This document shows positions 1 through 64,000 of a DNA stretch of 64,000 nt, in pieces (the first letter of the stretch is position 1; every line of letters begins with the position of its first letter). Location: positions 9,962-73,961 of the IMG/VR virus record IMGVR_UViG_3300021255_003500. The stretch is one strand, 5' to 3'. Made by a program: the position numbers and the translations under genes. The stretch comes from a virus. Lineage: Duplodnaviria; Heunggongvirae; Uroviricota; Caudoviricetes. The notes below the pieces were generated by a model that was given only the letters and a program-made list of their open reading frames with translations, did not search any database and was not told the DNA's origin.

Positions 1-2714
1 CATCAAGTTTCCGTGCAGCATATCGTGATTTATCTTTAGAAAATTGGGATCGCGGTTATGAAATCTGGCAAGGATTGGGAAAAGACGAGAATGGCTTGCC
101 AGCACTGGGAGATTTGCAAGCTGCTTTTGCCAATCCAGATCAACAGCTTTACCTGGAAGCATTTTTCGAAAATGTTGAAGGTGGATCTGAAATATTACAA
201 AAGTTAGCAAGCGGAGCTGAGATTTAGGCCGAAGACATGAGAAAGTTTAATGCTAATGCACAGGCACAATATATAAATAATTGGAAAAAGTTTGGCTCTG
301 CTACAGATGGCGTAACAAACAAAATAAAGCAACTAGGCGGTTCAGCGTAGGAAGTTGCAAGCGCTGTTGGTCAAATGAACCAAGAGATGACACAAGCTTC
401 TCACAATCAATTTTACAGAAATGCTTGGCGCGCAGGAAAAAGAGATAGCCGGACACTTGCTGGCGTTAAGCAATTAACAAAGCTTGATCTGTCTGACGCT
501 GACATGAAATCTGGTTTATTTGATTCGCTGATTGAAAGTTCTTTACAAAGCACAGAGAATGCAGATTTGGCTATGTATCAAAACTGGGCAAATGTAGTTG
601 CTGAAAACCTTGCGCAATCTTTAACAAAAGCGTGGGATCAGGAAGCAGGCACGATTGACTTAGGTAACGGACTTAGTATTTCTTTGGATTCTCTTACGAA
701 TGGGTCTTTGGATATTGGTGAAATCGACGGTGCTTTAGCATCGATGTTAGATCCAGCTTATCAAGGTATCCTTGCTGCATTGCAATCATTCCTTGTTTCT
801 GGCGCACTGGTTATTACTGCAGATGGTGAAAATATCAAGGCGGAAATTAAGGTGGATGACATTGGACAAACTGCACGCAAGCCAGGTGGCGGTGGCGGAG
901 GCGGCGGAGGTAAATCCGCAGCCCAGAAGCTGATCGAAGAGCTGAAGCATCAGAAGGAGCTCAGTGATCACCGGCTGAAGATGCTGCAGTTCCAAGAAAC
1001 AAAGTATGAGAATGCTGGACAATGGCTGAACCTCAACGCTATGCTTGGCGAAGAGAATAACCTGCGTCGGACGATAATTACCGAGTCCGAACAAGCTATC
1101 GAACGGTTGAAGCAGCAGATGGCTTCAACTGCCCAAGGCTCTGACGACTGGTACAGCCTGCGCGATTCTATCCTTTCCTACGAAGAATCTATTGAAGAAT
1201 GCAACAACGCTATAGCAGAGAACACTAAGAAGATGCGGGAGAACTGGCAGACTGCCAGGAAGACCCGGATCGATCTGGAAGGTACGGTGGAACAGGAGAT
1301 CCAGGCTCGCATCGAAAGATACCGCAGCATGGTGGAAGGTACTGTTTCCATGCAAGATATCATTCTGGACGCTATCCGGCAGAGATATCAGGATGAATGG
1401 GAGCTGCTTTCCAAGGATATCGAGAAAAAGAAGGAAGCCCTAGAAGAAGAGAAGAACCTGATTGAGGAACGGCTAAACAAGCGTAAGGAAGCTGAAGATG
1501 AAGCGGAGAAGTATGAAGAACTGGCGGAGCTTCGCAGGCAGTATGCACTGATCTCAATGGACAGCACCCGTACAAAGGATGCCGCTACGCTGCGTGAAAA
1601 GATCGAGGAGCTGGAAAAGGATCTTGCCTGGAAGATCGCAGAGAACGAAAGCCAGGCACAGCAGGATGCGATTCAGGATCAGATCGACGCTTATGGCGAA
1701 TACCAGAGCAGTACAGAAGAAGACCTGAACGTTCTGCTGGAGGATGCCAATAACTTTGCTGATGAAGCCAACACCGTGCTGAAGATGAAGCAGGAGGATC
1801 TGTTTGCTTGGCTGAAGGCGAACGTCAAGGACTATGCCAATAGTCTGGACGCTGCGCAGACTTCCCTGCTGCTCAGCTGGGAAGATACCTACAAGCAAAT
1901 GTATGGCATCACCGATACCTGGTGGACAGAGATCAACGCGATCCTCAGCAGCGAGACAAGCTTTATCGAGTACATGAAGCAAAGCGAAGACTATAAGAAT
2001 GCTTCCGAAATGGACAAGCAGTATATGGTTGTCGAATGGGAAGATATGTACCGTGCTTATTTGGAAGCTTTCAAGGAAGGCGCAACTTATTTCCATGATG
2101 ACAATTGGCTGCTTACCTCTGGTACTGGAGCCGGTGGCAGTGGCAGTGGTGGAGGTAATCATAACGCAGATGAAGGAACGTCAGAAGAAAGCGAATTCCT
2201 TAACAAAGACTATAAGGATTTTAAAGATAAAACTTTCTCGGATATGTTTAAGGATATGTTTGTTGTATATGCAGAAAATTCTCGATACAGTAATGACAGC
2301 CTTCAAACTATGGAAGCTCTGCCTACAAAAAACAACAACAACGATACTACAGGTATTATTGATCAGAAGCGATTAAAGAAAAATGCCTCCGGTGGTCTTG
2401 TTGACTACACGGGTCTCACCTGGGTCGACGGAACTTTCAGCAAGCCAGAAGCTTTCCTGAGCGCAGACGACACTGCTCTGATGCGGGATATGCTGGACGC
2501 TGCTAAGTATATCAAGCTGAACCCATTCATCAGTAATATCGACAGTGCCAGCTTCAGCGGTAAGGGTTTCTCAGTCGGTGACGTGAACATTACCATTACG
2601 GAAGCGCAGTTCAAGGATGATGCGGATTATGAGCAAGTAGCGGAGCGGGTTGGCCAGGCGTTCCTGAAGGAGCTGAACAAGCAAGGAATGAACATGGCGA
2701 ACTACTCGTTCTGA
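1..2714 (+). CDS. Tail tape measure protein. 5' end lies outside the window. Frame 0 is open from nt 3 and contains in-frame TAG codons at 225-227 and 348-350.
   Basis: Long coiled-coil, Ala/Gln/Glu-rich protein with a Gly9 linker, positioned immediately upstream of Dit. Ends with TGA. The upstream in-frame translation ...KQLGGSA(TAG)EVASAVGQMNQEM... is continuous protein-like sequence. Confidence 0.8.
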
Positions 2715-2767
2715 TGTCCACAGTCAATGTGAGTTATAATGGAATAGAGCAAAAAAATAGAGGTATC

Positions 2768-2792
2768 AGGCCTGCCTTGGTGGCAGGCCTGA
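2768..2792 (+). other. Perfect 10-bp stem-loop (CAGGCCTGCC-TTGGT-GGCAGGCCTG) between the TMP and Dit genes. It has no T-run. It may be an RNA processing or stability element, or an attenuator.
   Basis: Inverted repeat read directly from the sequence. Confidence 0.35.
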
Positions 2793-2816
2793 CCTCCTTG
2801 GGAAAGAGGTGAAACA

Positions 2817-4436
2817 ATGCGAGGAGGATTTTCTTTTGATGGCGTTGACATTGCCGATCTCGGACTTGAATATGTGCCGGACAACGCCAACACCTATGTC
2901 TGGGGACCGGCTGCATGGCAGGGACATGAGCAGAGTTTCGAAGGACATGACGGCGCATATTTCTATGGCACGACCGTGAAGCCAAAAGACTTTGTGCTAC
3001 GGTGTATCTATGAGGACACCCTGGTAACCAGCGGCAGCTTGTCCAAAGTTTTCGCGTTCTTCAAACGTGGACGTTCTGGCAAGCTGGTCTTCCAGCGCAG
3101 ACCGTGGATCTGGTATCTGGCAAGAATTACCAGTATCGACGCCAGGCAGATGACCAACAAATACAACGGTGTACTGACCATCAACATGCGTGCTTATTAT
3201 CCCTTTGGCAGAACGGACTATACGACCGTTCCTCCGGACTACGAGTATGCGGAAGACATGATAGCAAACTCCGGTATGATACCTGGAACTGTCTGGGATA
3301 CTAGCCGGGACTTCGCTGCGGATGGACCGATCACAGAACAGAAGGAGTTCATTCTGTATAACCCTGGCAGCGAAGATGCGCCGGTAGCAATTGAGATTGC
3401 TGGTGACACAGGTGACGGCGTTCGGATCGCCAATGTGGAAACCGGGCAGAAGGCAACCTTCGTAGCGCTGACAAAGACGCTGACCACCAACGCGAACAAG
3501 TATCTGACCCTGGACAGCATGAATGGCAAGGCACTGCTGACCAACGGACTTGAAAGCCATTATGCTTTTCTCTACCATGACAACGGCGTAATTAACTTGA
3601 AGAGCGCGTTTCCTGTTGTCCGGGATGTGGAGATCACTGCCGAAGCAAACAGCCATACGATCTACAGTGACGGCAAGTTTACGGAAGACATGAAGGGCAA
3701 GTACATCGGGTATCTGAACAGTGATACGGTGACCTATGTCTATACGTACAGTCCGCTTGGATATCTGCAGACCTCGGAAGACGAGAATGGCATTAGCCGG
3801 TACAACTACACGAACGGTGTGTTGACCAGCATTGAAAAGCCAGACCACAGCATGGTCACATTCACATACGATGCCAATGGCAAGCTGACAGAAAAGAATG
3901 ATGCCGGTATTGTTTCGACATATACCTATGATGAATCCGGCAGGCTGCTGGAGATCAACGAGAACGGCGCCGTCCGGCAGTATACCTATAACAGTCTTGG
4001 TCTCCCAGCAACGCTGACGCAGAATGGCAGCATTCTGGAAACATATACTTATGACGCGCATAACCGGCTGACCACCGTTACTTACGGAGATGGCAGGATT
4101 ACAAAGCTGACCTACAACGACAATGATGACATCATGTACTCCGTGACCGGGACAGCGCAGGAGATCTATACCTACCGGAATAATAAGCTGGTGGCCGTGA
4201 CGCACGCAACCATTTCTGAAGACGACGCGATGTTCAATAATGAAACCTCCGGCGTTACTTACGCGGAGATCCTGGATGTCGTCAGTCCGTATGAAATAAC
4301 GGTCAGCAAAGCTGCTGCGGAGAACATTGCGACAACAGCAAACATCATGACCATGAACAAGATCGTGGTAACACCGCTTGGAGAAAGCATGGAGCTGACT
4401 AGGCTGGTGTTCAGATATAAGCCAACATTCTCTTAA
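2817..4436 (+). CDS. Distal tail protein (Dit) with a C-terminal YD/RHS-repeat extension.
   Basis: N-terminus MRGGFSFDGVDIADLGLEYV is typical of siphovirus Dit. The C-terminal half carries repeated YTYDxxGRL / FTYDANGKL YD motifs. Strong RBS. TAA stop. Confidence 0.75.
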   Translation: MRGGFSFDGVDIADLGLEYVPDNANTYVWGPAAWQGHEQSFEGHDGAYFYGTTVKPKDFVLRCIYEDTLVTSGSLSKVFAFFKRGRSGKLVFQRRPWIWYLARITSIDARQMTNKYNGVLTINMRAYYPFGRTDYTTVPPDYEYAEDMIANSGMIPGTVWDTSRDFAADGPITEQKEFILYNPGSEDAPVAIEIAGDTGDGVRIANVETGQKATFVALTKTLTTNANKYLTLDSMNGKALLTNGLESHYAFLYHDNGVINLKSAFPVVRDVEITAEANSHTIYSDGKFTEDMKGKYIGYLNSDTVTYVYTYSPLGYLQTSEDENGISRYNYTNGVLTSIEKPDHSMVTFTYDANGKLTEKNDAGIVSTYTYDESGRLLEINENGAVRQYTYNSLGLPATLTQNGSILETYTYDAHNRLTTVTYGDGRITKLTYNDNDDIMYSVTGTAQEIYTYRNNKLVAVTHATISEDDAMFNNETSGVTYAEILDVVSPYEITVSKAAAENIATTANIMTMNKIVVTPLGESMELTRLVFRYKPTFS

Positions 4437-4448
4437 GGAGGTGAAGGG

Positions 4449-7400
4449 GTGCTTCGATACAAACGAAACCTGGCGTTGGATATCTTTGACTATGCTGGAC
4501 ATAAGATCTGCAATCTGTATGACAACAGCGGAGATATCAATGGACAGGCTACCAACGTGGTGGTAACCACAGAGCGCAACGGATGGAAGGAGCTTTCCTT
4601 CACTATTCCATCCGTTTGCGAAAACGCTGACGGCAGTCAGGAGGACAACTTCCGGGTCGATCTGCTGAAAGCGGACTATCGGATCCGGTTGATAGACGAC
4701 GATGGAACGGACTGGTATATCATTTCTGAACCTAAGATCGTTCACAATAAGGCGATGAAGAGTGTCAGCGTGACAGCCGGACATATCGCCCAGCTGCTGA
4801 AGACGAAGAACCTTGGACTGGAATTCTAGGACGAGGAAGGGAACAACGTTGGAACAGCGGAGGAGCTGCTGACAACCATTCTGGATGGTACAGGCTGGGA
4901 GCCAGGAGAAGTTGCTACCTTTAAGGAAAAGATGAGCGGCGCCGTGAAGTACAGAAGTCTGAAAGCTTCCGCAAAGACAGGCGCGTTCAAGCTGATCTCC
5001 AACATGTGTGATCTGTTTGAGGCTAAGCCGATTTATCACGGTGATACAAAGAAGATCGACATCGTTCCCATGAACCCGTTCTCCGAACCAGAAGACGGTT
5101 CTCTGCCGGATATTGCAGACGAAAAAAAGTCCAAGGTGATTGAGCTTCGTTATGGCAACAATGTCAAGAACGTTACACGAACGCTGAACACAGAGAACCT
5201 GGTGACGAAGTTGTATGCCTACGGTGCTTTCGGTGATAAAACCAGCGGTTACTGCGGCATCGACGAATGGGTGCACAATGAGTACATCCTGCAGCTGAAC
5301 AATGACGTTCCGGCGGGCAAGGAGTGCGTGCTGGAGATCACCAACGAAGCAACAGGGATCACTTGGAAGCGTTACTTCACGCCGTATGAAGACTTAACAG
5401 TCGGTACGCAAGTGATCTGGTCCGTACTGGATCCTGCGTCCATGAGCTATGTCTGGAACGAAGACGCCGAGCACGCCTATCCGGTTTATCAGAAGCGTAC
5501 ACAGGATGAGCCAGCAGCAACAACATTGGTGGAGACGCAGTCTGTTACCAACTATTTCTCTTTCCTGATGGACTTCGACTATTATCGGGAAGTAGATCTG
5601 CTGACAGACGAGATGATCCAGACGATCGCAGAATACCAGCGTAAGATGCCGGAGCTGCAGCGGATCGTATCAGAGAAAGCAACCCTGTTTGCAGAGAAAC
5701 TGACAGAGCTCAGCGAGATCGTTGGCAGCGGCAACTTCTGCAAGCTGGCGATCAGTGACTATGCCAACAATACAGGCTATCTTCGTCTGACCCTGGATCG
5801 ATCAGAAGACCCGAAGGGTGCGATCTACCGAACGGACTACACGGTCCGGGAGAACAAGCAGTTCAAGTGGCGTGAAGCTGAGAAGCTGAAGGAGAACGGA
5901 GACCCGCTGAATGACGCGGCGTCGATCGTCTATATCATTCATGATCGGAATCCTCTGTCTTACGATACTGCTTATATCAAGGAGATCGAATGGGAGGAAG
6001 GCGATGAGAAGCGCGAGAAGCCGGTTGCTTTTACCCTTTGGCTGCCCTTCACGGAAGAATACCTGGAAAACTTCTCAGATAACCATGTATTCCTGTTTGC
6101 CAGTCACACGGTGAACGGACGGCTTGGCGCTTATCAGACAGCGGACGAGGCTGCGAAAGCCGCGCTGGAATCCACGACCAAAGTGGTTACGGAAAGACAT
6201 CCGGTGTACTTCTCCCCTACCACACCAGACATTGCCATCGAGAATATCCAGGGTTATGCCTGGTGGTGGAAGTACAACAACACGGGTGCGCCATCGGAAA
6301 TGTATTTTTGCTATCGCTACAGCGACTCTTCCGAGTATGCCAGCAGAATCACAGAAGGCGACACCCGGTGGTACCGCATGCATTTCGACAGTACTTTTCC
6401 TATTGCCGCAGCCAAGGACTATTTCTACAACTGGAAAGAGGCGGTCCTTTATCGACTGAACACCGACAACGAGTGGGTCAAGTATAATGAGCGTTCTTCC
6501 GCAGAAGACCGTATGGTTGCCAAGCTTGGATCGATCTTCCGAAGCTGTCAGACGAGAGACGCGCTGTATAACGGCGAGTATCAGTACTATACCGTGGAGC
6601 TGGACACAGATCTGCCAGTTGGCAACTATGCCTTTGCTGACAACTATGGGAATTATTACGCCTTCACCACCAAGACGCCGCTGACTGCCAATGACAAGCT
6701 GGTTTACGATACGACAGAGCGCTGGGTGATCGCAACAGCAAAGTCAAACGATGTCGAGGATATGACCAAGGAAGAGATCATCGACATGACGCTGGAAGCA
6801 AAGGACTATCGTTTTGACAATGTCTATATGCATGCAGCCAATGTGGTTGGCAGAACAGTCTGGGAACCGGGCGCACTGGAGATCATCGAAGGCGCTACCG
6901 TAGAGACAGAGGACTCTGAAAAATACCGTTCTGGTTTCTGCCCCGTATATTCGAACATCGAATATCAGATCAGCGGACTGGCCGGAAACATTGATGTTTA
7001 TACGTACACGATCAACCGCACTTTCCAGGATCATCGGGTGATCAACGCTGTGAATGGCACGATGACAACACCGAACAACTGCCGGTTCATGCGGTTTGTT
7101 TATAACCCGACAGCCAACAATTATACGCCCAGCGATATCCAGAAGTATCTGAACGTAGCAGCGCTGAGCAAGGATAATGCTTTCGTGGTGGACGAGAAGG
7201 AATACCTGCTTTTGCCGCAGCCAAGTGAAGGCAGTGGAGAACTGAAAGGCATCATCCCTTTGACAGGGAAATTCCTGGCAACCGCAGACGAAGCGTTCCT
7301 ATCCGCCAAAGTCATCATGGAACAGGCACAGGCGGATGTGAAAGAGCTGGAAAGCAGACTGGTAAACGATCTCGGAGAGATGTATCGGGAAGGCTACTGG

Positions 7401-8615
7401 CAGAAGAGCGACTATGTGGACGGCGACGAAGAGAAGCTGTACAACGACGCGCTGGAGAACCTGGAAGAGATCGCATTCCCGGAAGCCAAATATCAGGTAG
7501 GCTATCTGGATCTGTATGGCACAGAGCAGCCAGACTTTGGCGTTACAGAGCTGACCAGTGATGTTTTGTGGCCGGATATCAGCATTGACTACGCGGTGCA
7601 TCTGATCGACGACGAGATCGGGATCAGCAAATGGGCGTTCATCGATAAGCTGTCCAAGTGTTATGACCAGCCGTGGAAGACCACGCTGACGCTGAATACA
7701 AAGCTCAGTACCATCGGGCAGCACAGCTTTACGGATGTCATGACCCATATCGCAGAGGTAGCCAATCAGGTGAAAGGCAAGATCGAGGTCTACAACCGGG
7801 CAGAAGTGGTCAATTCTACCGGTCAGGTAGCAGCGGAGATCCTGGAAGGAACCATCGACGCCAACCGGCTGATGATCACCGGAGGCTCCTCTACCTGGTA
7901 TACGGACGACCGGGGCAATCTGATGTTCCAGAGCGCGGATGGCAAGTCTGCCATGGCGATCACAGGCAACGGCTTTGCCATAGCTAACAGCAAGGATGAA
8001 TGGGGCGACTGGGTATGGCGCACCTTCGGTACAGGAGACGGCTTCTCGGCAGACATGATCGTAACAGGTTTCATGTAGGCAGAGCGGATCCTTGCCGGAA
8101 CGATCACTGCCAGCAAGCTGGCTTCCGATGTTGGCGCCAGTCTGGACGTAAGCTCCAATGAGTCTCTGAACCTGGTGGTTGGCGATGCAGTATCCAGGAT
8201 CCGGATGACCGATGAAGAGATCGTCAGCACGATCATGGAAAGTTCACGGTATCAGGCAGACAAGGAAGCTCTGATCGGCAGTGCTGTGCAGCAGACAACC
8301 TCTAACCTGGCGGTTCGTTTCAACACGATCGAGGCGCAGCAGGCGGTTGTCGATGGCAAGATGGAAACAATCAACAATGTGGAGTCCTGGTTCAAGTTCA
8401 ATAACGATGGGACTTTTGACATCGGAAAGTCCGACAGTCCGTTCAGCGTCAAGCTTGGCACCGAAAAGCTTCAGTTCATGAAAGACGACAAAGAGATGGC
8501 GTACTTCCAGAACAATACGCTGTATAACACAGCAGCGGAAATTTCCAATAGGCTGAAGCTTGGCAACTTTACCATAACGGTAACAGACGACGGCGATACG
8601 TTGGTTTGGAATTAA
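4449..8615 (+). CDS. Tail-associated/tail-tip protein (Tal-like), 1388 aa. It reads through in-frame TAG codons at 4827-4829 and 8076-8078.
   Basis: Track ORFs 4449..4829, 4932..8078 and 8175..8615 are all in frame 0. The gaps 4830-4931 and 8079-8174 have no other stops, and the sequence across the TAGs is protein-like (...GFM(TAG)AERILAGTITASKLASDVGASLDV...). The N-terminus resembles the prophage tail endopeptidase N-domain. True stop is TAA at 8613. Confidence 0.75.
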
Positions 8616-8627
8616 GGAGGTGACAGC

Positions 8628-10869: not shown

Positions 10870-11253
10870 GTGAGAAAATTGAACAAGATTTCTCAGATCC
10901 GGGTTCACGGTGTCGACTATGAGATCGCGGATGCGAACGCCCAGGAATTCATCGGTTCCCTGGACAACTCCGTGGTCCGCTATGTCGAGGTTACCGGGAC
11001 GAACCCGACGATCAACGGCGAGGCCAACACCATTTATCTGTGCGGGGAGGTTTCTACGATCTCTGTGACGCCTCCGGCGACAGGCATGATCGGGGTTCGT
11101 TTCCGCAGCGGTTCCAGTGTGGCGCTGCTGAACATCCCTTCCTCAGTCCGGTGGCCTGCATCGTTTGATCCTTACGCGCTGCAGACCAATACCGTATATG
11201 AACTGAACATTCTGGACGGCATCTACGGGGCGGTGATCGCGTGGACATCTTGA
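10870..11253 (+). CDS. Putative fibre-associated protein carrying the shared N-terminal motif (LNKISQIRVHGVDYEIADA). Start may be TTG at 10879.
   Basis: N-terminal motif is shared with the genes at 16260 and 17405. Lies in the late operon. Confidence 0.45.
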   Translation: MRKLNKISQIRVHGVDYEIADANAQEFIGSLDNSVVRYVEVTGTNPTINGEANTIYLCGEVSTISVTPPATGMIGVRFRSGSSVALLNIPSSVRWPASFDPYALQTNTVYELNILDGIYGAVIAWTS

Positions 11254-11903: not shown

Positions 11904-11924
11904 TATTGAAAGGAGTTGCTGCAT

Positions 11925-12152: not shown

Positions 12153-12185
12153 TCGCCTTCATCTAAGAAGTAAGGAGGGATTCGC

Positions 12186-15896: not shown

Positions 15897-15911
15897 ACGG
15901 AGGTATGATCT

Positions 15912-19343: not shown

Positions 19344-20138
19344 ATGACAATGGCTGTATCAGCAAAAGAATTCTCCATGCAGGGAGATAAGTATCTTGGT
19401 CGGCCTTACAGTGAGATGGATTGCCAAGCTTTCGTGGAACAAATGATGTCGGATGTCGGCATCAAAACGGATCTGAAAGGATCCAACGCCTGGTTCAGAA
19501 AGGTAACGTGGGTTGGAACACCCGAGGAATGCAAAGCCAAGTTTGGATAGATCCCGGTGGGGGCTCTCCTCTTTATCTGGAAAGATGACGGAGGAGAGAT
19601 CCCCCGGGGGTATAAGGACGGACTTGGCAATGCTTCGCATATCGGTGTCTACATTGCTCGCGAAGAAGGTGCGATCCATTCCAGCAGCAGCAAGCACAAG
19701 GTATGCTACAGTAAGTTCTCTGGCAAGAGTATTAAAGGTGGCTGGAACAGAGTTGGCTTATGGGATCGCTTCGATTACGGGCAGCACATCAACCAAATAC
19801 TGAACCAGGACTCAAATCAAAATGAAAGGGATGAGAGTCCTATGTTATATACTGGTATTATCACATCTTCCAACGGAAAGGGAGCCAACCTGCGATCAAA
19901 GAAATCCACTAGCTCCGATCTGATTGTCAGGATGGGAGAAGGCGACAGCGTTGAAGTGCTCGAAGACAACGGCAGCTGGCTGAAGGTTACATATGGAACC
20001 TATACCGGCTACGTGCTGAAGAGCCTGGTTGCTCAGGCGGACTACGAGAAGGAGACCACGCCTGTTACCGTAACTCTGCCGTACAATATTGCCCTTGAAC
20101 TGAGAGACGCCCTCATCAATGCGATGGGGGTGGGTTAA
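19344..20138 (+). CDS. Endolysin with an NlpC/P60 (CHAP-like) cysteine peptidase domain and a C-terminal SH3b domain. In-frame TAG at 19548-19550.
   Basis: Track ORFs 19320..19550 and 19557..20138 share frame 0 and are separated only by TAG. The catalytic Cys (SEMDCQAF) lies upstream of the TAG and the His (NASHIGVY) downstream. The SH3b-like C-terminus reads GANLRS...WLKVTYGTYTGYVL. Confidence 0.7.
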
Positions 20139-20139
20139 A

Positions 20140-20496
20140 GTGGAGAACTTAACGCTTGACAACCTCAAAGTAGCTGTCCTGGTGATCCTTGGGGTCATGG
20201 CGCTGCTGGTGTCGGTGGAGAAAGGTATCGAAGCTTTTCATAAGCTTTTCAGAAAGCGCTCTGAGGATCTGCAGCAGTAGCAGAACCAACGGATCAGCAC
20301 ACTGGAAACCAGAGTGGCTTCCTGTGAAAGCAGGCTGACCCGTGGCGACGAGAAGTTTGCTTCCATTGAGGAAGACAACAAGCAGATGCTTGTAGCGCTA
20401 AACGCAATGCTGATGCATATGATCAGCGGAAACGATCACGCAAAGCTGACCAGCGTCAAGCAGCAGCTCGATCAGTATCTGGCATCCAGAAGGTGA
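20140..20496 (+). CDS. Lysis-cassette membrane protein with an N-terminal TM helix and a coiled-coil tail. In-frame TAG at 20278-20280.
   Basis: Frame 1 is open from GTG 20140 through the TAG to TGA 20494. Contains LKVAVLVILGVMALLVSV then EDLQQ(TAG)QNQRISTLETRV.... Confidence 0.5.
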
Positions 20497-22120: not shown

Positions 22121-22318
22121 GCTTGAGTGGACGAAGGCAGCACGGAGGGAGGTGATACGCATGAAGAAAATGAAACTCAACCATGCGATCCAGGTGGCCA
22201 AGACTTAGCTCTCGGTTGCCGCCGATCTTATTACCATTTATTTATTCATCAGAATATTAATTGGTTAATTAGATGACAAGATTCCAATGAAATGTTTTGC
22301 CTTCGTCCACTCAAGCAG
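22119..22318. repeat. Perfect 21-bp inverted repeat pair (22119-22139 and 22298-22318) bracketing the 35-aa TAG-containing peptide gene.
   Basis: ctgcttgagtggacgaaggca versus its exact reverse complement tgccttcgtccactcaagcag. Confidence 0.7.
22161..22268 (+). CDS. Small peptide, 35 codons (MKKMKLNHAIQVAKT-TAG-LSVAADLITIYLFIRILIG), with an internal TAG at 22206-22208. Paralog of 23740..23847.
   Basis: Strong RBS GGAGGGAGGTGA. Protein-level conservation with copy 2 on both sides of the TAG. Opposite strand to the flanking genes. Confidence 0.55.
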
Positions 22319-23704: not shown

Positions 23705-23889
23705 AGCGGACGCAGGCGTTACGAAAGGAAGTGATACGCATGAAGAAAACAAAATTCAGTCATGCGATCAGGGTGGCGAAGACTTAGCTCTCTGTCACCG
23801 CCGATCTGATAACCATCTACATGTTCCTTCGTATGTTGTTTGGTTAACTTATCAGACTAAATTCCCTTGAGTTCTTGTCTGCGTCCGCT
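23705..23889. repeat. 11-bp inverted repeat pair (23705-23715 and 23879-23889) bracketing peptide gene copy 2.
   Basis: agcggacgcag versus ctgcgtccgct. Confidence 0.5.
23740..23847 (+). CDS. Small peptide, 35 codons (MKKTKFSHAIRVAKT-TAG-LSVTADLITIYMFLRMLFG), with an internal TAG at 23785-23787.
   Basis: RBS AAAGGAAGTGA. Paralog of 22161..22268. Followed by a strong terminator. Confidence 0.55.
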
Positions 23890-25333: not shown

Positions 25334-26085
25334 TCACGACACTGCTTGTACATCGATACTATCAATGTAAAGCAAGAGTTCTTTTTTACGATAAGGCAGT
25401 CCGTATTTTTTTAACCATTTGGTGACAGCATGTCCAGTAACATCATACCGTCTTGCGATTTCAGATAAGTTGCATGACGTATCTTCTAACAGTTTAATCA
25501 ACGCATCCTTTGAAGGCATAAGCACACGTTTGGGTATTTGTGCCATCATGTCATTCGCGTATTGCCAACGGTATCCACCAGCAGTTTTGGTAATACCTCT
25601 AACGCAACTGTTGATGCAACTTACATGAACGTTGGATTGCTTAGACGCTTCTGCCAGAGAATTATATGTGGCCATCAATTCTCCAGACAAACTATATTGC
25701 TGCACTGCTCTTCCTTTTCTGGGCTTACGTAAATTATTTTCATAAGCGTGTATTAAATTGTCCTAATACGTTGCCCACTCTAAATTATCAACACAATTAT
25801 TCGTCTTGTTTCCATCTTTATGATTGATCTCGTCTTTCTGATCTTCTTGATTTAAGAAAGCTTCTGCTACACACCTGTGAACGTAGACTTTCTTAAATGA
25901 ACCGTCTTTTCTTGCAGAAAAGCATAAGTATCCGCTGTTATCTACTTGCGGATGCATTATACTCTCACGAACGGTCATCGTTTGTTTGCCGCATTTGACA
26001 ACACGCTTTACGCTGCGTATGTTTCCTTGGTTGCTTACATCATAGTAACCTTCATATCCAACTACAGGTCTCCATTCTTCGATAG
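25334..26085 (-). CDS. HNH homing endonuclease with NUMOD4 and HNH domains and a C-terminal HTH DNA-binding domain. In-frame TAG at 25763-25765.
   Basis: Track ORFs 25763..26263 and 25334..25705 share a frame. The former ends in TAG. Readthrough gives ...NLEWATY(TAG)DNLIHAYEN..., which matches the conserved HNH_3 NLEW.T..EN..HA motif. The N-terminal 50 aa of the track ORF overlap tRNA genes, so the start is probably TTG near 26085. Confidence 0.6.
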
Positions 26086-26110
26086 TAACCAACTCCTTTG
26101 CAAAGATAAG

Positions 26111-26194
26111 CGCGGTGTGAAGGATTTGAACCTTCGGAGCCAACGGCTCAACGGTTTTCAAGACCGCCGCAATCAACCGCTCTGCCAACACCGC
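26111..26194 (-). tRNA. tRNA-Ser (anticodon UGA). Class II tRNA with a long variable arm and G73.
   Basis: GCGGTGT / TTGGCAGAGCGGTTGATTGC / GCGGT-CTTGAAA-ACCGT / variable arm GAGCCGTTGGCTC / GGTTCAAATCC. Confidence 0.8.
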
Positions 26195-26200
26195 AAAGGG

Positions 26201-26285
26201 CGTGGAGTAGAGGATTTGAACCTCTGGAGGCTTCCACCTCGACGGTTTTAGAGACCGCTGCAATAAACCGCTCTGCCAACTCCAC
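26201..26285 (-). tRNA. Amber suppressor tRNA (anticodon CUA). It is a tandem paralog of tRNA-Ser(UGA), with a long variable arm and discriminator G73.
   Basis: GTGGAGT / TTGGCAGAGCGGTTTATTGC / GCGGT-CTCTAAA-ACCGT / variable arm GAGGTGGAAGCCTC / AGAGGTTCAAATCCTCT / ACTCCAC-G. The loop CT-CTA-AA gives anticodon CUA. Confidence 0.8.
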
Positions 26286-26539
26286 GTAAAAAACAGCCCG
26301 AATGCTTTCGCTTCACCACAAAACTACTCGCATATTTACGTAGGGGTTCGGGCTTGTCGACCCCTGCCGGTTTGTCAGTTCCGGCAACTGGTACCTTTGT
26401 CGCATGGTGGTGCATCATGCGGTAGGCGTACAGTTCCTGCGGGGAACATCCCCGCTTCAGATGGACCCGGACCTTTCGGTCAGCCCAGACATATGCCCCG
26501 AGCGCTACTTTCCTGATCAACGGATAGTTTTACAGGGCA

Positions 26540-36254: not shown

Positions 36255-36704
36255 TTAGGCAAAAAGCTGCGGATTCCGCCTGGCATACTCGGCGATCAGC
36301 AGCGCCTCCGCCATGCCATCGGAGGGCTTTTTGCAGCGGGGTGTCGGAAGCAGATTCACATCCGGAAACAGCCGTTTGCATACGTCGATGGACTGCTGTT
36401 TGTCCGAATGCAGATCAAACTCCTTCTTCCAGCGCTGCGGCGGTACCAGGATATATGAAATATGGTAAGCGCTCAGCACGCCTTCGATGAAGCCGGCAGA
36501 CTTTCCGAAGTTAAACATGGAAACAACGCCTTGTCCTGGCATCGCGCCAACCTTTTCCACACAGGCGCAGACCTCCTGCCCCTGTATCTAAAGCAGTCTC
36601 TCCACAAACGCACCATTGTCCCACGGAAACACCGCAGGCGGAGCACCACAGAAGAGCGCGGCGAAGCCGCCCTTCGCACCGGGATCAACACCAAGATAGA
36701 TCAT
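36255..36704 (-). CDS. RuvC-like Holliday junction resolvase (phage type). In-frame TAG at 36588-36590.
   Basis: Upstream extension of track ORF 36255..36560 through the TAG gives N-terminus MIYLGVDPGAKGGFAAL, which is the canonical RuvC start with catalytic Asp. The C-terminus has DGMAEALLIA. Confidence 0.65.
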
Positions 36705-39523: not shown

Positions 39524-40198
39524 TCATTCCGGCGTGCGCTCTTGCGGCGCCGCCGTGGCTTCTGCCTCCTCGGGACAGATAAAGCGCTGGTATAAATCGT
39601 CGAAGATAACGGGAATCCGTTCATGCGCCCTTTCCAGCAGATCCTTCATCAGCAGACGCATGGGAGGATAAGCGGCGATATCGCAGCGCAGAGCAAAGAT
39701 ATGCCGCCACTCCCGGAGGTTGGCCTTCATGATGATTTTGCAGGCGGTGGAATTCGGCAGGACTTCCCGCGCCTGTTCAGGCTTGGCGCCGTTCTCGATC
39801 ATCTGCTTGTAGGCATTCTCCGCCATGCGCATGGCACTGTGCCAGATGGCGCTGCGTTCGTCCCGGTCATTCCCGTCGTACCAGTCCGGGGCGATGAAGG
39901 TGATGTCGCCGGTCTTGGCTTCCTGGATATAGCGCTGGGATTCCACGCAGAAGGAAGCCAGACGGTGGCGCGTCAGCTCTGCCAGGACCGCCCGGGAGGT
40001 TTCAATCTCCACGGTCATGTCCGCAAACTCCAGCGGGGCGCCATGACCGCGCTTCAGCAGACCGTTCACAAAAGACTCCGCAGAACCCTGAGTGATGCGG
40101 TCCTGGCTGGCGTAGCAGTTGCGGCCTGCGTATTCAATATCCTGCAGCGGCCAGCGGTTGGCGCTGCGGATCATAACTGATTGTTCCTTGATGATCAT
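39524..40198 (-). CDS. thyX: Flavin-dependent thymidylate synthase.
   Basis: RHRxxS motif (TRHRLASF). Confidence 0.8.
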   Translation of the reverse strand: MIIKEQSVMIRSANRWPLQDIEYAGRNCYASQDRITQGSAESFVNGLLKRGHGAPLEFADMTVEIETSRAVLAELTRHRLASFCVESQRYIQEAKTGDITFIAPDWYDGNDRDERSAIWHSAMRMAENAYKQMIENGAKPEQAREVLPNSTACKIIMKANLREWRHIFALRCDIAAYPPMRLLMKDLLERAHERIPVIFDDLYQRFICPEEAEATAAPQERTPE

Positions 40199-40554
40199 TA
40201 CGTCGCCTCATTTCTCGAAATCGGCGCAACAGAAAAGACAGGCTCTTCGCCCGTCATCAGCTGCGGCACCGTCGTACCGGTATGAATGTGCATTTTGCGG
40301 TCGTGGTTCAGACGCTGCAGCTCCTGTGTGATTTCCTTCACGGAGAGCCTGGTCGCTATCACCTGACCGTTATCCAGGATCACCAACTACCTGGTCAGAT
40401 CTTTTCCGGAGCCGATGATCAGACGCTTTTCTCTTTTCTCCTGCTGGTAAAGCTCTTTTGCCTGACGCATAGACATGCCAAAAACAGTCATGATCCGATC
40501 TGCGTTCACCGCCAGCTCATTCTAAAGGTATATAAAACGAATCGGATATTCCAT
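40198..40554 (-). CDS. Hypothetical protein (about 118 aa) with two in-frame TAG codons (40387-40389 and 40522-40524).
   Basis: Upstream extension of track ORF 40198..40386 gives continuous protein-like sequence ...IIGSGKDLTR(TAG)LVILDNGQVIA.... The track ORF would otherwise start at TTG directly after the TAG. Confidence 0.5.
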
Positions 40555-42395: not shown

Positions 42396-43420
42396 CCTCG
42401 GTTTCCCGATATTTATGAGGGGTTTAGACTATCTCTTCATCCACTAGGGATGTGTGGCACTTCGACAACAAGAGTTTCACTTGCTGTCTACTTCCTTCCG
42501 GAATAGTCGTTACACCTTACTCCTACTGGAGTCTTGGCACGGTATTAACATGCAGCATAGCAACAATTTCATTTGTTCTTTGTGCAATATCTTCATCAAA
42601 TCTGATTTCAAACAGAGGGATGTGATGCTCAGCACAAAACGTTCGTTTCAAAGGATCTGTTATCTCTCTTTCATATGTTCCAAATTCTGGATAATACGGA
42701 TCGACACGGTAATGTTGAATGCCTTGCATTTCAATCGCCGCAATTATGTGATTGTCAGTATCCAATATTTGGAAATCAAACAATGGGTATGTCCCATTAG
42801 GAGTTTGTAGTTCTTCATGTCTCTTATTTTGTTTGAAACGAATGTTGTTTTGCTAGAGTATCTCTCCGATAATCTGTTCTCCTCTGCTTTTCACACAACC
42901 GCAGCTTTGTGTTTTACCGGAACGCAGTTGCCAACCTTCTACGACAGCCTGATTACCACAATCACAAACACAATCCCACAAGATTTTATGCTGTCCTGCG
43001 CTGGTTATATTTGTTCCATGATATCCTGTAACTGTCAGTTTTCCAAAACGCAAACCAGCCATATCCCGGATAGGTTTATGAAAGTTTTCTTTTTGCTGGC
43101 AACCACAAGAAACTGTAGTCTATTGACGAAGACTCTGCCCAGAAACAACAGTCGTATTACCACAAACACATTGGCACATCCACATTGTTCTGGGTTTCCC
43201 GCTTGGTAAAATGTGATCTGGAGCACGGTATAAAACCGTAAGCCTCCCAAATTGTTTACCGGTTAAGTCTTGAAACTTAGGCATCATACCACCTCCTAAC
43301 ATCAATATGATATTGTTATGCTGTTTAGTCTTTACCGTTAGCGCACATAAGTGCACACCCTACATGTGTAGGTTCACCACATTATCCTATCCATATTGCT
43401 ATGGCAGGGGCCAATTATTT
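42396..43420 (-). mobile_element. Group I intron (IA2, T4 td-like) interrupting dnaE, with an ORF inserted in the P6-loop position.
   Basis: R-like AACGACUAU and S-like AAGAGAUAGUCU elements form P7. A P8 helix and the 5' GGCC/P2/P3-like AACGUGGUAAACC region are present. Homologous to the second copy at 52137..52404, with compensatory helix changes. Confidence 0.65.
42517..43293 (-). CDS. Intron-encoded putative homing endonuclease. It has tandem Zn-ribbon modules (FGRLTV...W.C.C.CGN...SCGC, twice) and a C-terminal Vsr/DUF559-like PD-(D/E)xK region. It contains three in-frame TAGs (43120, 42853, 42523).
   Basis: Track ORFs 43120..43356, 42853..43062 and 42523..42783 all end in TAG and share one frame. 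Readthrough joins them. ATG at 43293 with RBS AGGAGGTG. Confidence 0.5.
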
Positions 43421-51377: not shown

Positions 51378-51408
51378 GCATCAAAAAACAGGAGGGATGG
51401 CCTCCTGT
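51378..51408 (-). terminator. Rho-independent terminator on the minus strand (CAGGAGG-GATGG-CCTCCTG followed by a T-run).
   Basis: Hairpin plus TTTTTTG on the minus strand, after the stop of gene 51408. Confidence 0.5.
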
Positions 51409-52404: not shown

Positions 52405-52548
52405 AAGGCATTTGTCCATTCTTTCCACCAACCAGCTTCGAAATGAACTTATTGATCGCAGGATATTGTTCGTAAGAGTTGATCACGCCAGACTTTGCAC
52501 CATCAATCCCTTGCTACTGTATGTTTCCATACAGAGTAGACTGTATCA
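52405..52548 (-). CDS. Exon 1 (48 codons, one in-frame TAG at 52513-52515) of the intron-split gene. It is preceded by a 3-codon mini-ORF (MSL) whose UGA stop overlaps this exon's AUG (AUGA).
   Basis: ORF MIQSTLYGNIQ(TAG)QGIDGAKSGVINSYEQYPAINKFISKLVGGKNGQMP ends exactly at the inferred 5' splice site. Upstream RBS AAGGAGAGA. Confidence 0.4.
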
Positions 52549-52591
52549 TAGACTCATGGAGTCTCTCCTTGTCAGTCGTTCGGGCGCACTA

Positions 52592-53278
52592 TCAGTTGGC
52601 GCCACGGGATTGCCTTGCTCGTGTATTGTGGTGATTAGCTGCACAATACTCATCCCATCCTTCTACTTCAACGAAGCGCCAGGAACGATTGCTTCTTATT
52701 GCGTTGATGTTTGCACGAGAGATGTTGTATTTTTCAGCTAAATCATCCCATGATATATTAGCCATAAGATCCTTTTTGATTTCTGCTACTTGGGTTGCTG
52801 TAAGTTTTGTTGTTTTCATTGGTTCTTCGTTGAGAATTTTATGAATTCTGGTCGCAATCATTTTATCGCTCATCCCTTCCGGGCGTTTTTTGCCAAGACG
52901 AGTACGCGACATTTTGGCTTTCGTTTCTTCGGAAGCTTTCTTTCCAGTATTTAATCGACGATTCAGTTCACCGAGTTCTTTGCGTCTGTATTCCGGCAGC
53001 GGGACGCCGTGTGCTCCAGCTCCTCCGTCGGCGATGTTACAACAATGCCCAACTTCGCGAGCTTTAGCAATGTATTCAATTTCTAAATCGTCTAATAAGC
53101 TTTCGTCTTCAACTGATTTTAATACTGAAAATTGAAAAGCTTCTTCTCCATACTTATTATACGAAGATTGCAACCATTTGTTATCATGCTGGTTAGTTCT
53201 TAACTTCCAACGATGAAAACAATAGCGTTTTTCAAAAGACTCTCTTGTCTGACCAACATAAACCAAACCAGAAATCAA
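52592..53278 (-). CDS. GIY-YIG homing endonuclease with a C-terminal NUMOD/HTH DNA-binding domain.
   Basis: ISGLVYVGQTRESFEKRYCFH matches the GIY-YIG motif. C-terminus has TKLTATQVAEIKKDL...SRANINAIRSNRSW. Confidence 0.7.
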   Translation of the reverse strand: MISGLVYVGQTRESFEKRYCFHRWKLRTNQHDNKWLQSSYNKYGEEAFQFSVLKSVEDESLLDDLEIEYIAKAREVGHCCNIADGGAGAHGVPLPEYRRKELGELNRRLNTGKKASEETKAKMSRTRLGKKRPEGMSDKMIATRIHKILNEEPMKTTKLTATQVAEIKKDLMANISWDDLAEKYNISRANINAIRSNRSWRFVEVEGWDEYCAANHHNTRARQSRGAN

Positions 53279-53418
53279 GTTTCGGATCTCATAAATGCCT
53301 ATCTAATTACGATAGATATCTTCGTTGACGAAATGCATCATATGATCACCACCTTTCATTTGTAATACACGAGTTTAGGGTTTCCCCGTTATTCGGAGTT
53401 CAATAACATGTCGCCATG

Positions 53419-63350: not shown

Positions 63351-63356
63351 CTCATT

Positions 63357-63542
63357 TCACCGTCTTTTCGCATTCTTGTGGAAGCCATGCCAATTATGAT
63401 ATCTACTCATTTTCTTTTTGAATCGTGCTTTTTTATACATTTTTCTTATTGGAACAACACAGCCATTATCGTTTACAATATATAGAACTATTCTGTTCAT
63501 TCCCACTTCACCACCCTTCCACAATATGGACAGAACACCCAT
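63357..63542 (-). CDS. Hypothetical small basic protein.
   Basis: ORF. Confidence 0.3.
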   Translation of the reverse strand: MGVLSILWKGGEVGMNRIVLYIVNDNGCVVPIRKMYKKARFKKKMSRYHNWHGFHKNAKRR

Positions 63543-63769
63543 TTAGAGATGAGATGCTTATGACAATGACCACATACTGTCCATTCGGTTTGTTCCATCT
63601 GTCTTATTGGTTCAACAGGTTCCTGCTCTTTCAATAGCTTGATAGCCTCTTCCACGTATGTTCCAATGCCGATAATCAGTTTGTCTCGCGTGTATTGGTG
63701 ATGTACCCAGCGAGAATAAGCCTCGTCGGAGATTTCTTGCAATCCGTTGCAGATTTGGTCTCTGGTCAC
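63497..63769 (-). CDS. Small Zn-ribbon protein.
   Basis: CGHC...CPYCG. Confidence 0.45.
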   Translation of the reverse strand: MTRDQICNGLQEISDEAYSRWVHHQYTRDKLIIGIGTYVEEAIKLLKEQEPVEPIRQMEQTEWTVCGHCHKHLISKWVFCPYCGRVVKWE

Positions 63770-63993
63770 TCTTGCTTCACCGCCTCATTCCACTTTCTGA
63801 TCGCGTCTGTGCTGTTCTTCCCGATAACCTTGAACCCGCAACGCTTGCAGACCAGAGCTTCGCAATCAATACCGTACCAGTGTTCACGGCGGACGCCTCC
63901 GCACTTGCACGGCAGCATGGCACGGGATTCACGTTTCTTCGGCTCCTGCGTTTTCAGTAAGGCGATAGCATCTTCGATGATATCCACTCTCAC
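63766..63993 (-). CDS. Small Zn-ribbon protein.
   Basis: CKCGG...CKRCG. Confidence 0.45.
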   Translation of the reverse strand: MRVDIIEDAIALLKTQEPKKRESRAMLPCKCGGVRREHWYGIDCEALVCKRCGFKVIGKNSTDAIRKWNEAVKQE

Positions 63994-64000
63994 AAATCGC

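What the first reader, a model, noticed from the sequence alone, without database searches (positions are those of the whole stretch)
1..64000. Amber codon (TAG) is read as sense throughout this phage: at least 18 in-frame TAGs, and no gene terminates with TAG
Every gene stop checked (about 110 ORFs) is TAA or TGA. In-frame TAGs sit inside otherwise continuous, protein-like reading frames at 225, 348 (TMP), 4827 and 8076 (Tal, joining three track ORFs into a 1388-aa protein), 19548 (endolysin), 20278 (lysis TM protein), 22206 and 23785 (small peptides), 25763 (HNH HEG), 36588 (RuvC), 40387 and 40522 (ThyX-upstream gene), 42523, 42853 and 43120 (intron HEG), and 52513 (exon 1 of the intron-split gene). 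Several of these join halves of well-known domains: the NlpC/P60 Cys and His, the RuvC catalytic N-terminus and its C-terminus, and HNH NLEWAT-x-EN. That argues against pseudogenes or chance.
Basis: seen in the sequence. Interest (0 to 1): 0.9.

Follow-up and report, generated by a model that had tools for sequence, protein, structure and literature searches.

The report
Phage reads TAG stop as serine
This roughly 107-kb gut-type phage never ends a gene with TAG, instead reading it as a rare serine codon through its own serine-type suppressor tRNA; this kind of recoding is known, but the serine version is rarely documented and standard annotation would mistranslate it as glutamine.

Summary
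Fourteen of the 16 listed TAGs are in-frame sense codons inside continuous genes. I found one more, at 53303-53305 in a GIY-YIG homing endonuclease. One listed site is ambiguous: 42523 lies two codons before a TAA. One is wrong: the TAG at 52514-52516 (listed as 52513) is the 3' end of a group I intron.

All 79 curated genes end in TAA (44) or TGA (35).

A phage tRNA with anticodon CUA lies at 26198-26286 (-). It has a long variable arm and G73, and is 78% identical to the adjacent tRNA-Ser(UGA).

Homologue columns at the four well-sampled TAG sites have serine as the commonest residue:
- Tal site 1: 111/118
- Tal site 2: 55/75
- Lysin: 56/120
- HNH: 96/262

This gives +12.4 bits for Ser against -1.9 for Gln, so TAG means Ser, not Gln (code 15).

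Identical sequence in three assemblies, and TAGs kept in relatives of 95-98% identity, exclude sequencing error and pseudogenes. Just upstream of the window the same tape-measure gene runs at least 3,298 codons with 15 TAGs.

UAG-to-Ser phages with a Ser-tRNA(CUA) were reported in 2014 according to a review, so this is a new member of a known but rarely documented kind.

The parts
26198..26286 (-). Amber suppressor tRNA, anticodon CUA. Class II with a long variable arm (5-bp stem), a 7/5 acceptor/T arm and discriminator G73: serine type.
   Evidence: ARAGORN; Rfam tRNA, 54.3 bits; sequence and fold. It is 78% identical to the adjacent tRNA-Ser(UGA). Sixteen of its 20 nearest non-suppressor tRNAs among 467 phage tRNAs are tRNA-Ser.
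26110..26194 (-). tRNA-Ser(UGA), 3 nt downstream of the suppressor. Probable parent of the suppressor by tandem duplication.
   Evidence: The same Ser(UGA)+Sup(CUA) pair occurs in the related contig L090.
3..2714 (+). C-terminal 904 codons of a giant tape-measure protein, with sense TAGs at 225-227 and 348-350.
   Evidence: One TAA/TGA-free frame of at least 3,298 codons with 15 TAGs (L211:2-9898), and no Shine-Dalgarno motif before any post-TAG start. Relative L215 has an uninterrupted 5,641-aa TMP whose alignment spans both sites.
4449..8615 (+). Tal / prophage-tail protein, 1,388 aa, with sense TAGs at 4827-4829 and 8076-8078.
   Evidence: Pfam YOMG_N lies upstream of the first TAG and Prophage_tail downstream of it. 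Homologues of 1,200-2,400 aa span both sites, with Ser in 111/118 and 55/75. Relative L214 has a TAG at the same first site.
19350..20138 (+). NlpC/P60 + SH3 endolysin, with a sense TAG at 19548-19550 between the catalytic Cys and His.
   Evidence: Pfam NLPC_P60 match 19-131 spans residue 69 but is sub-threshold (20 bits against a cutoff of 23). In 120 homologues that are nearly all full-length and span the site, the column is Ser in 56. The TAG is conserved in L208, L209 and L210.
20119..20496 (+). Lysis-module transmembrane protein, with a sense TAG at 20278-20280.
   Evidence: Compared with L208 there are 3 synonymous and 0 nonsynonymous changes upstream of the TAG, and 5 and 0 downstream. 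The TAG is conserved in three relatives.
22161..22268 (+). 35-aa hydrophobic peptide ORF (type I toxin-like), with a TAG at 22206-22208. Paralogue of 23740-23847.
   Evidence: Eight of the 13 codon differences after the TAG between the two copies are synonymous, including AGA/CGT. The ORF has an SD+ATG and flanking inverted repeats.
23740..23847 (+). Second copy of the 35-aa peptide ORF, with a TAG at 23785-23787.
25334..26101 (-). NUMOD4-HNH homing endonuclease, with a sense TAG at 25763-25765 (NLEWATY*DN). The start coordinate is approximate.
   Evidence: Pfam HNH_3 match 69-112 spans the TAG. Homologue column: Ser 96/262. The three closest homologues all read ...TYSEN.
36255..36704 (-). RuvC/MOC1-like Holliday-junction resolvase, with a sense TAG at 36588-36590 (codon 39).
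   Evidence: PDB MOC1 matches cover the region after the TAG (E=9e-10). The GVDPG motif before the TAG aligns only weakly. The GAGGTG-ATG start lies 7 nt after the nrdD stop. The L090 homologue (63% identity) spans the site.
40198..40554 (-). RemA-like protein, with sense TAGs at 40522-40524 (codon 11) and 40387-40389 (codon 56).
   Evidence: The Pfam RemA-like profile 5-72/73 and PDB 7BM2 both span the two TAGs. The aligned residues are Gly and Ala.
42517..43287 (-). Homing endonuclease inside the dnaE intron. Sense TAGs at 43120-43122 and 42853-42855. The TAG at 42523-42525 is ambiguous (followed by GAA TAA).
   Evidence: Homologues in L090, L083, L084 and others span both sites. There is a weak group I signal at 42404-42604.
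52592..53341 (-). GIY-YIG homing endonuclease inside RNAP intron 1, with a sense TAG at 53303-53305 (codon 13).
   Evidence: The Pfam GIY-YIG match starts at residue 15. The L081 homologue (70% identity) aligns across the site.
52514..52516 (-). It is the 3' end (terminal G) of group I intron 1, not a codon.
   Evidence: Relatives' uninterrupted RNAP aligns to 55440-53443, then 52513-52406, then 52127-51408. Sequence. Rfam Intron_gpI at 52517-52776 (E=0.007) and 52146-52415 (E=4e-9).

Best explanation
The phage uses a private genetic code in which UAG is a rare serine codon.

**Proposed mechanism.**
1. The phage encodes a class II tRNA with anticodon CUA. This tRNA is a diverged copy of the tRNA-Ser(UGA) gene next to it.
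2. Bacterial seryl-tRNA synthetase ignores the anticodon and recognises the long variable arm and G73 (established knowledge). The host enzyme should therefore charge the tRNA with serine.
3. The charged tRNA decodes UAG in competition with host RF1.
4. All phage genes end in TAA or TGA, so efficient suppression does the phage's own termination no harm.

**Shown here.**
- In-frame TAGs lie in conserved genes.
- Homologues have serine at the well-sampled sites.
- The suppressor tRNA is of the serine type.
- No gene in the window ends in TAG.
- The TAGs are conserved in relatives.

**Inferred.**
- Charging by host SerRS.
- High suppression efficiency. This is needed because a single tape-measure protein carries 15 TAGs.
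- Any regulatory role. One possibility is that lysin, TM protein, tail and toxin-like genes stay untranslatable until the phage tRNA is expressed, in what looks like a temperate phage because it carries an integrase.
For: **The suppressor tRNA.**
- It is 78% identical to the adjacent tRNA-Ser(UGA). It is 85% identical to an orthologous Sup(CUA) that also sits next to a tRNA-Ser(UGA) in a related 110-kb IMG/VR contig.
- Its nearest neighbours among phage tRNAs are tRNA-Ser, 16 of the top 20.

**Amino acid at the TAG sites.**
- Ser is the commonest residue in homologues at all four well-sampled sites: 94%, 73%, 47% and 37%. Gln is at most 8%.
- The summed log-odds are Ser +12.4 bits and Gln -1.9.

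**Continuity across the TAGs.**
- Domains and full-length homologues span the TAGs.
- L211, L212 and L213, from ENA, Logan and JGI samples, are 100% identical.
- The TAGs persist in relatives of 95-98% identity, with purifying selection on both sides.
- A relative with 51% Tal identity has a TAG at the same invariant-Ser site and many more TAGs besides.

**Termination.**
- The 79 genes end in TAA (44) or TGA (35).
Against: - There is no peptide evidence.
- In relative L208, three extra TAGs align with CAG, CAG and AAG in the window. CAG/TAG would be synonymous under code 15. However, the three cannot all be synonymous, and the gene has 33 nonsynonymous differences.
- At less conserved or poorly sampled sites the homologues show Gly, Ala, Lys or Glu rather than Ser (RemA, RuvC, HEGs).
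- No RF2, RF1 antagonist or SerRS gene appears among the called genes of the window and flanks. How RF1 is outcompeted at 15 sites in one protein is therefore unexplained.
- About 36 kb of the genome, including the head and terminase genes, was not examined.
- The host is only inferred to be Oscillospirales, and its code is assumed to be standard.
Confidence: 0.87

Rival explanations
1. Standard phage 'code 15': TAG is read as glutamine, as in crAss-like, Lak and other recoded phages.
For: This is the only TAG reassignment found in the large phage survey. Two of the three TAG/sense polymorphisms against relative L208 are CAG.
Against: Gln occupies only 0.8%, 1.3%, 5.9% and 7.8% of the homologue columns, where Ser has 94%, 73%, 47% and 37%. 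The suppressor has a long variable arm and G73 and resembles tRNA-Ser. It does not resemble the phage's own 72-nt tRNA-Gln(UUG) at 31146-31217.
Confidence: 0.05
2. TAG is still a stop. The split ORFs are pseudogenes, assembly errors, or separate adjacent genes.
For: Standard-code gene callers split these genes. Homing endonuclease genes often decay.
Against: Only TAG ever interrupts a gene, never TAA or TGA. The sequence is identical in three independent assemblies. The TAGs are conserved, with synonymous-only change on both sides. Essential single-copy genes are affected (TMP, Tal, lysin). No SD or start follows the TAGs in the TMP. A cognate suppressor tRNA is present.
Confidence: 0.02
3. 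Partial, programmed read-through. TAG is mostly a stop and is only leakily suppressed, so each gene gives a truncated and a full-length product.
For: Host RF1 is presumably present and no RF1 antagonist was found. One TAG lies 2 codons before a TAA. A relative's helicase has a TAG at the natural stop position with a backup TGA 4 codons later.
Against: Most TAGs lie inside catalytic or folded domains, where the truncated product would be useless. With 15 TAGs in one TMP, leaky suppression would yield almost no full-length protein: 50% efficiency per site gives about 3e-5.
Confidence: 0.06
4. Pyrrolysine or another non-canonical amino acid is inserted at UAG. ARAGORN labels the tRNA 'Pyl'.
For: The ARAGORN label is given to any CUA anticodon.
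Against: The tRNA has a 17-nt variable region and a normal D arm, whereas tRNA-Pyl has a 3-nt variable loop (background knowledge). No pyl genes appear among the Pfam-annotated genes of the window. The TAG sites are conserved Ser positions.
Confidence: 0.005

Closest known systems
Amber-reassigned phages carrying Ser-tRNA(CUA), from Ivanova et al. 2014 (Science 344:909), as summarised in PMC4695839.
   Same: UAG is read as serine in a phage that encodes its own Ser-type tRNA(CUA).
   Different: The primary paper could not be read, so lineage, host and codon density cannot be compared. The review says those phages also encode RF2. None was found in this window or its flanks.
Code-15 (TAG to Gln) recoded phages: crAss-like, Lak, Topaz, Garnet and phAss-1 (Borges et al. 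preprint 10.1101/2021.08.26.457843; PMC9523058; PMC10607447).
   Same: In-frame TAGs occur in structural and lysis genes. A phage suppressor tRNA(CUA) is present. The integrase and core replication genes are free of TAG. The inferred host probably uses the standard code.
   Different: The amino acid is Ser, not Gln. That survey states that only TAG-to-Q and TGA-to-W were seen. TAG is sparse here (1.3% of Ser codons). Within the window it is not enriched in late genes (1.1% against 1.2%).
Serine-inserting amber suppressors of the laboratory: E. coli supD and phage T4 psu1+ (from my own knowledge), and allo-tRNA(CUA) variants with G73 (PMC5389517).
   Same: A tRNA-Ser body with the anticodon changed to CUA is charged by SerRS, because SerRS does not read the anticodon. 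G73 matters for Ser insertion.
   Different: Those are mutants or engineered tRNAs that rescue nonsense mutations. Here the suppressor is a fixed natural gene, conserved between diverged phages (85% identity). Essential genes depend on it.

Membership tests
Stop-codon-recoded (alternatively coded) phage, TAG reassigned | In-frame TAGs inside conserved genes, with homologues and domains that span them. | tested here: met
Stop-codon-recoded (alternatively coded) phage, TAG reassigned | TAG is not used as a gene terminator, or only with a nearby backup stop. | tested here: met
   None of 79 genes in the window ends in TAG. One TAG lies 2 codons before a TAA. The unread 36 kb of the genome was not tested.
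Stop-codon-recoded (alternatively coded) phage, TAG reassigned | A phage-encoded suppressor tRNA with anticodon CUA. | tested here: met
   tRNA at 26198-26286 (-).
Stop-codon-recoded (alternatively coded) phage, TAG reassigned | Peptide-level proof of read-through. | not testable with these tools
   Needs LC-MS/MS of virions or infected cells.
Genetic code 15 (TAG = Gln) | TAG aligns with conserved Gln, and the suppressor tRNA is of Gln type. | tested here: not met
   Gln is at most 8% of the columns at all four well-sampled sites, and Ser is the commonest residue at all four. The tRNA is class II and Ser-like.
Amber-to-serine recoding via Ser-tRNA(CUA) | TAG aligns with conserved Ser in homologues. 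| tested here: met
   Ser in 111/118, 55/75, 56/120 and 96/262.
Amber-to-serine recoding via Ser-tRNA(CUA) | tRNA-Ser identity set: long variable arm, G73, and a canonical 7/5 acceptor/T helix. | tested here: met
   A 5-bp variable-arm stem, G73, and 7-bp acceptor plus 5-bp T stems. It is 78% identical to the neighbouring tRNA-Ser(UGA).
Amber-to-serine recoding via Ser-tRNA(CUA) | The tRNA is actually charged with serine by SerRS. | not testable with these tools
   Needs an aminoacylation assay or a Ser-dependent reporter such as CAT S146TAG, as used in PMC5389517.
Amber-to-serine recoding via Ser-tRNA(CUA) | An accompanying RF2 gene, said to occur in the 2014 phages. | tested here: not met
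   No RF-1/PCRF Pfam family appears among the called genes of the window plus 7 kb. The remaining 36 kb is unread. This is probably not a strictly defining feature.
Pyrrolysine decoding | tRNA-Pyl architecture (short variable loop) and pylS/pylBCD genes. | tested here: not met
   The variable region is 17 nt. No pyl genes occur in the window.

The most novel reading that the evidence does not exclude
UAG = Ser may be the fixed code of a whole clade of large siphophages of Oscillospirales that carry giant tape-measure proteins.

- It would have arisen by duplication of a phage tRNA-Ser(UGA).
- Reassignment would be essentially complete late in infection. That implies an unknown way of neutralising host RF1.
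- It would serve as a translational lock on lysin, holin-like, tail and type I toxin-like genes in a temperate phage.
- Pipelines based on code 15 would systematically mistranslate these phages.
Probability: 0.35. Interest if true: 0.7.

Novelty: new member of a known kind. Interest (0 to 1): 0.55.

Why it matters
- **Annotation.** Standard-code gene calling splits the TAG-containing genes found here into fragments (TMP, Tal, lysin, TM protein and HNH). Re-annotation with code 15 would put Gln at invariant Ser positions. No NCBI translation table has TAG = Ser (from my own knowledge).
- **Biology.** The case shows that SerRS, which does not read the anticodon, offers phages a second route to amber reassignment besides Gln. 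The large 2021 survey did not see this route.
- **Test system.** A single essential protein with 15 UAGs gives a stringent natural test of how a phage outcompetes RF1.
- **Applications.** Natural Ser-tRNA(CUA) genes that work against a standard-code host may interest researchers in genetic-code expansion and biocontainment.

Tried and rejected
- **Megablast of 50 kb against 50,697 GenBank phages.** No relative was found.
- **Related loci through the 862-aa NrdD.** This gave 80 loci, but they are unrelated phages that share only nrdD.
- **Tal in IMG/VR.** Nothing was found.
- **Third homologue search, with 2,689 aa of the TMP.** No hit passed the threshold and the search was wasted. TMP alignments to L214 and L215 cover only two variable TAG sites and say little about the amino acid.
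- **DUF6273 protein against GenBank phages.** No match, so the CAG/CAG/AAG-versus-TAG polymorphisms could not be placed against deeper homologues.
- **Late-gene enrichment of TAG.** Not supported inside the window (1.14% against 1.19% of Ser codons, p=1). With the full TMP the ratio is only 2.2-fold (p=0.08).
- **Simple total-ORF-length comparison of the three stop codons.** It does not discriminate, because removing TGA lengthens spurious ORFs most.
- **My first codon-model gene caller.** It truncated genes at TAG because of how it was trained, so the genes were curated by hand.
- **Rejected readings.** Pyl, pseudogene and code-15 readings were considered and rejected (see the rival explanations).
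Full report
**What the window is.** The 64-kb window (51% GC) matches a 107,054-bp metagenomic contig, ENA ERZ12302814 NODE_188. The contig is a siphovirus-like phage.
- Tail and lysis genes lie on the + strand from 1 to 20.8 kb.
- An integrase gene at 21062-22039 follows.
- From about 22 kb on, the - strand carries seven tRNA genes and the early and replication genes. These include nrdD, dnaE, a helicase-primase and a YonO-like RNA polymerase.
- Genes have strong AAGGAGG-type ribosome-binding sites.
- GenBank phages hold no close relative.
- The RNA polymerase finds relatives at 36-56% identity in IMG/VR contigs and in MAGs or genomes of Acutalibacteraceae, Oscillospiraceae, Ruminococcus and a Clostridiales isolate, plus one Gastranaerophilales MAG. 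The host is therefore probably in Oscillospirales. This is an inference.

**Checking the observation.**
- With ORFs delimited only by TAA and TGA, the listed TAGs are in frame at the stated places.
- I confirm 225, 348, 4827, 8076, 19548, 20278, 22206 and 23785 on the + strand.
- I confirm 25765, 36590, 40389, 40524, 42855 and 43122 on the - strand.
- The TAG at 42525 is followed by GAA TAA and cannot be classified.
- The TAG listed as 52513 actually occupies 52514-52516, and it is not a codon. Uninterrupted RNA polymerase genes of relatives align to three blocks: 55440-53443, 52513-52406 and 52127-51408. The sequence reads ...ACAGTAG|CAAGGG. Rfam detects group I intron signals at 52517-52776 and 52146-52415. 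This TAG is therefore the 3' end of intron 1.
- The total is 15 firm sites plus one ambiguous.
- Of 79 curated genes, 44 end in TAA, 35 in TGA and none in TAG.

**Is it more than chance?**
- Off-frame TAA+TGA density is 3.7% per codon, so a true stop should meet another stop after about 27 codons.
- The frame stays open after the TAGs for a median of 126 codons and up to 1,261. Thirteen of 16 run at least 60 codons. After real TAA/TGA stops the figure is 21 of 79, about the share expected from a next gene in the same frame (p=1e-4).
- Every interruption is TAG. Decay or sequencing error would mostly give TGA or TAA.
- L211, L212 and L213, from an ENA assembly, a Logan assembly of SRR873598 and JGI 3300002641, are 100% identical over 17-21 kb, TAGs included.
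- Contigs with 95-97% nucleotide identity (L208-L210) keep the TAGs in the lysin and the TM protein. Substitutions there are 2 synonymous and 1 nonsynonymous upstream of the lysin TAG and 11 and 4 downstream. For the TM protein they are 3 and 0 upstream and 5 and 0 downstream.
- The two 35-aa paralogues differ at 13 codons after their shared TAG, and 8 of those differences are synonymous, including AGA/CGT.

**Continuity of the proteins.**
- *Tal:* Pfam places YOMG_N before the first Tal TAG and Prophage_tail after it. 120 Tal homologues of 1,050-2,400 aa were found; most carry both domains in one chain.
- *Lysin, HNH and RemA-like:* the NlpC/P60 match (sub-threshold, 20 bits against a cutoff of 23) and the HNH_3 and RemA-like matches each span a TAG. 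PDB RemA aligns across both RemA-like TAGs.
- *Resolvase:* it matches MOC1 structures after the TAG. Its GVDPG motif lies before the TAG.
- *Tape-measure gene:* read from a locus reaching 7.2 kb upstream of the window, one frame runs at least 3,298 codons without TAA or TGA and holds 15 TAGs. None of the post-TAG 'starts' called under the standard code has a ribosome-binding site. A relative encodes an uninterrupted 5,641-aa tape-measure protein, so a giant single protein is normal for this group.

**The cause: a suppressor tRNA.**
- ARAGORN and Rfam find a tRNA with anticodon CUA at 26198-26286 (-).
- It has a 7-bp acceptor stem, a 5-bp T stem, a CU-CUA-AA anticodon loop, a 17-nt variable region with a 5-bp stem, and discriminator G73.
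- It is 78% identical to the tRNA-Ser(UGA) that follows it after 3 nt.
- A long variable arm plus G73 is the bacterial SerRS identity set, and SerRS does not read the anticodon. This rests on established knowledge.
- A related 110-kb IMG/VR contig (RNA polymerase 56% identical) carries an 85%-identical CUA tRNA, again next to a tRNA-Ser(UGA). The suppressor is therefore older than these two phages.

**Which amino acid?** Columns aligned to the TAG in homologues:

| Site | Ser | Others |
|---|---|---|
| Tal 4827 | 111/118 | Gln 1 |
| Tal 8076 | 55/75 | Gln 1 |
| Lysin 19548 | 56/120 | Gln 7 |
| HNH 25765 | 96/262 | Lys 62, Gln 20 |

- The three closest HNH homologues all read TYSEN.
- Treating each column as one observation, the log-odds are +12.4 bits for Ser and -1.9 for Gln, the next best.
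- A relative with 51% Tal identity (L214) has a TAG at the same invariant-Ser position. It also uses TAG heavily elsewhere, for example in the repeat AKGYTDT**ENTLN*.
- Less conserved sites give Gly and Ala (RemA), Gly (intron HEG) and Lys or Glu (resolvase, GIY-YIG). None is a conserved Gln.
- The one contrary hint is that three extra TAGs in L208 face CAG, CAG and AAG in the window. These cannot all be synonymous, and that gene has 33 nonsynonymous differences.
- I conclude that TAG = Ser, with about 0.9 confidence.

**How it probably works.**
- *Shown:* the tRNA gene, the TAG-free termination set, and the Ser-conserved sites.
- *Inferred:* the host SerRS charges the tRNA, which then competes with host RF1.
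- With 15 TAGs in one essential protein, suppression must be efficient, or the full-length yield would be negligible.
- No release-factor, SerRS or other obvious helper gene is present in the window and flanks.
- TAG makes up 16 of 1,207 Ser codons (1.3%).
- In the window it is no commoner in late genes than in early ones. With the whole tape-measure gene the excess is 2.2-fold (p=0.08).
- TAG is absent from the integrase, nrdD, dnaE, the helicase and the RNA polymerase exons. Five of the eight early-strand TAGs lie in homing endonucleases.
- A lock on lysis, tail and toxin-like genes until the phage tRNA is made is plausible but unproven.

**Comparison with what is known.**
- Recoded phages are well described, mostly as TAG to Gln (code 15) or TGA to Trp. 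The main survey states that only those two were seen, and later work applies code 15 by default.
- A 2015 review says that Ivanova et al. (2014) also found UAG-to-Ser phages encoding Ser-tRNA(CUA) and RF2. I could not read the primary paper, and a phrase search found no other description.
- This is therefore a new member of a known but rarely documented kind.

**Limits.** There is no proteomic evidence. About 36 kb of the genome is unread. The host and its code are inferred. Four columns carry most of the weight of the amino-acid call.

Noticed in passing
window 51408-55440 (-): A YonO-like two-barrel RNA polymerase gene (motif FDCDGDQ; weak Pfam RdRP hit) is split into three exons by two group I introns. 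Intron 1 (about 53442-52514) carries a GIY-YIG endonuclease. Intron 2 (52405-52128) has no ORF. The middle exon is only 36 codons (52513-52406).
   Followed up: partly
window 40884-45124 (-): DNA polymerase III alpha (PHP, DNA_pol3_alpha and finger domains) is split by an intron of about 1 kb carrying a Cys-rich endonuclease (43287-42517). The group I signal is weak (E=0.04 at 42404-42604).
   Followed up: partly
window 22161-22268 and 23740-23847 (+): Two paralogous 35-aa ORFs (MKK..AKT*LSV + hydrophobic tail) run antisense to the surrounding genes beside the integrase. Each has SD+ATG, one TAG, and inverted repeats of about 20 nt on either side of the ORF. They look like type I toxin mRNAs whose translation would need the suppressor tRNA.
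   Followed up: partly
L211:2-9898 (window 3-2714 is its 3' end): A giant tape-measure protein of at least 3,298 aa with internal repeats and a G9 run. A relative (L215) has a 5,641-aa TMP. This implies extremely long tails in this phage group.
   Followed up: partly
window 26441-26487 (-): An Rfam DUF3800-XI RNA motif (60.6 bits against a gathering score of 37.8) lies immediately upstream of the suppressor tRNA and tRNA-Ser pair.
   Followed up: no
L214 (ENA ERZ27256863 k141_1043279), 3851-9217 and 10953-16703: A relative with 51% Tal identity uses TAG far more densely: 17 TAGs in its Tal frame (3851-9217), including tandem repeats 'AKGYTDT**ENTLN*', and 10 in the next long TAA/TGA-free frame. 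The extent of recoding therefore varies widely within the group. Relative L215 has none.
   Followed up: partly
L082:15400-17274 versus window 48161-50065 (-): In a related phage that also has the Ser-type suppressor, the helicase ends ...MPF-TAG-EVID-TGA, where the window's helicase ends ...QPF-TGA. A TAG sits at the natural stop position with a backup stop 4 codons later.
   Followed up: no
L208 669-1610 versus window 16461-17405 (+): The DUF6273 protein of a 95%-identical relative has three in-frame TAGs where the window has AAG, CAG and CAG. TAG codons are therefore being gained or lost on a short timescale.
   Followed up: partly
IMG/VR loci L137, L149, L153, L155 (and L090): Other viral contigs carry class II tRNA(CUA) genes with typical tRNA-Ser D arms and G73. 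Many further CUA tRNAs of 84-95 nt have unusual long variable regions. Serine-type amber suppressors may be more widespread in phages than the literature suggests.
   Followed up: no
window 26623-27750 (-): A class V aminotransferase (cysteine desulfurase-like, Pfam Aminotran_5) lies directly upstream of the tRNA cluster. It may be linked to tRNA thiolation.
   Followed up: no
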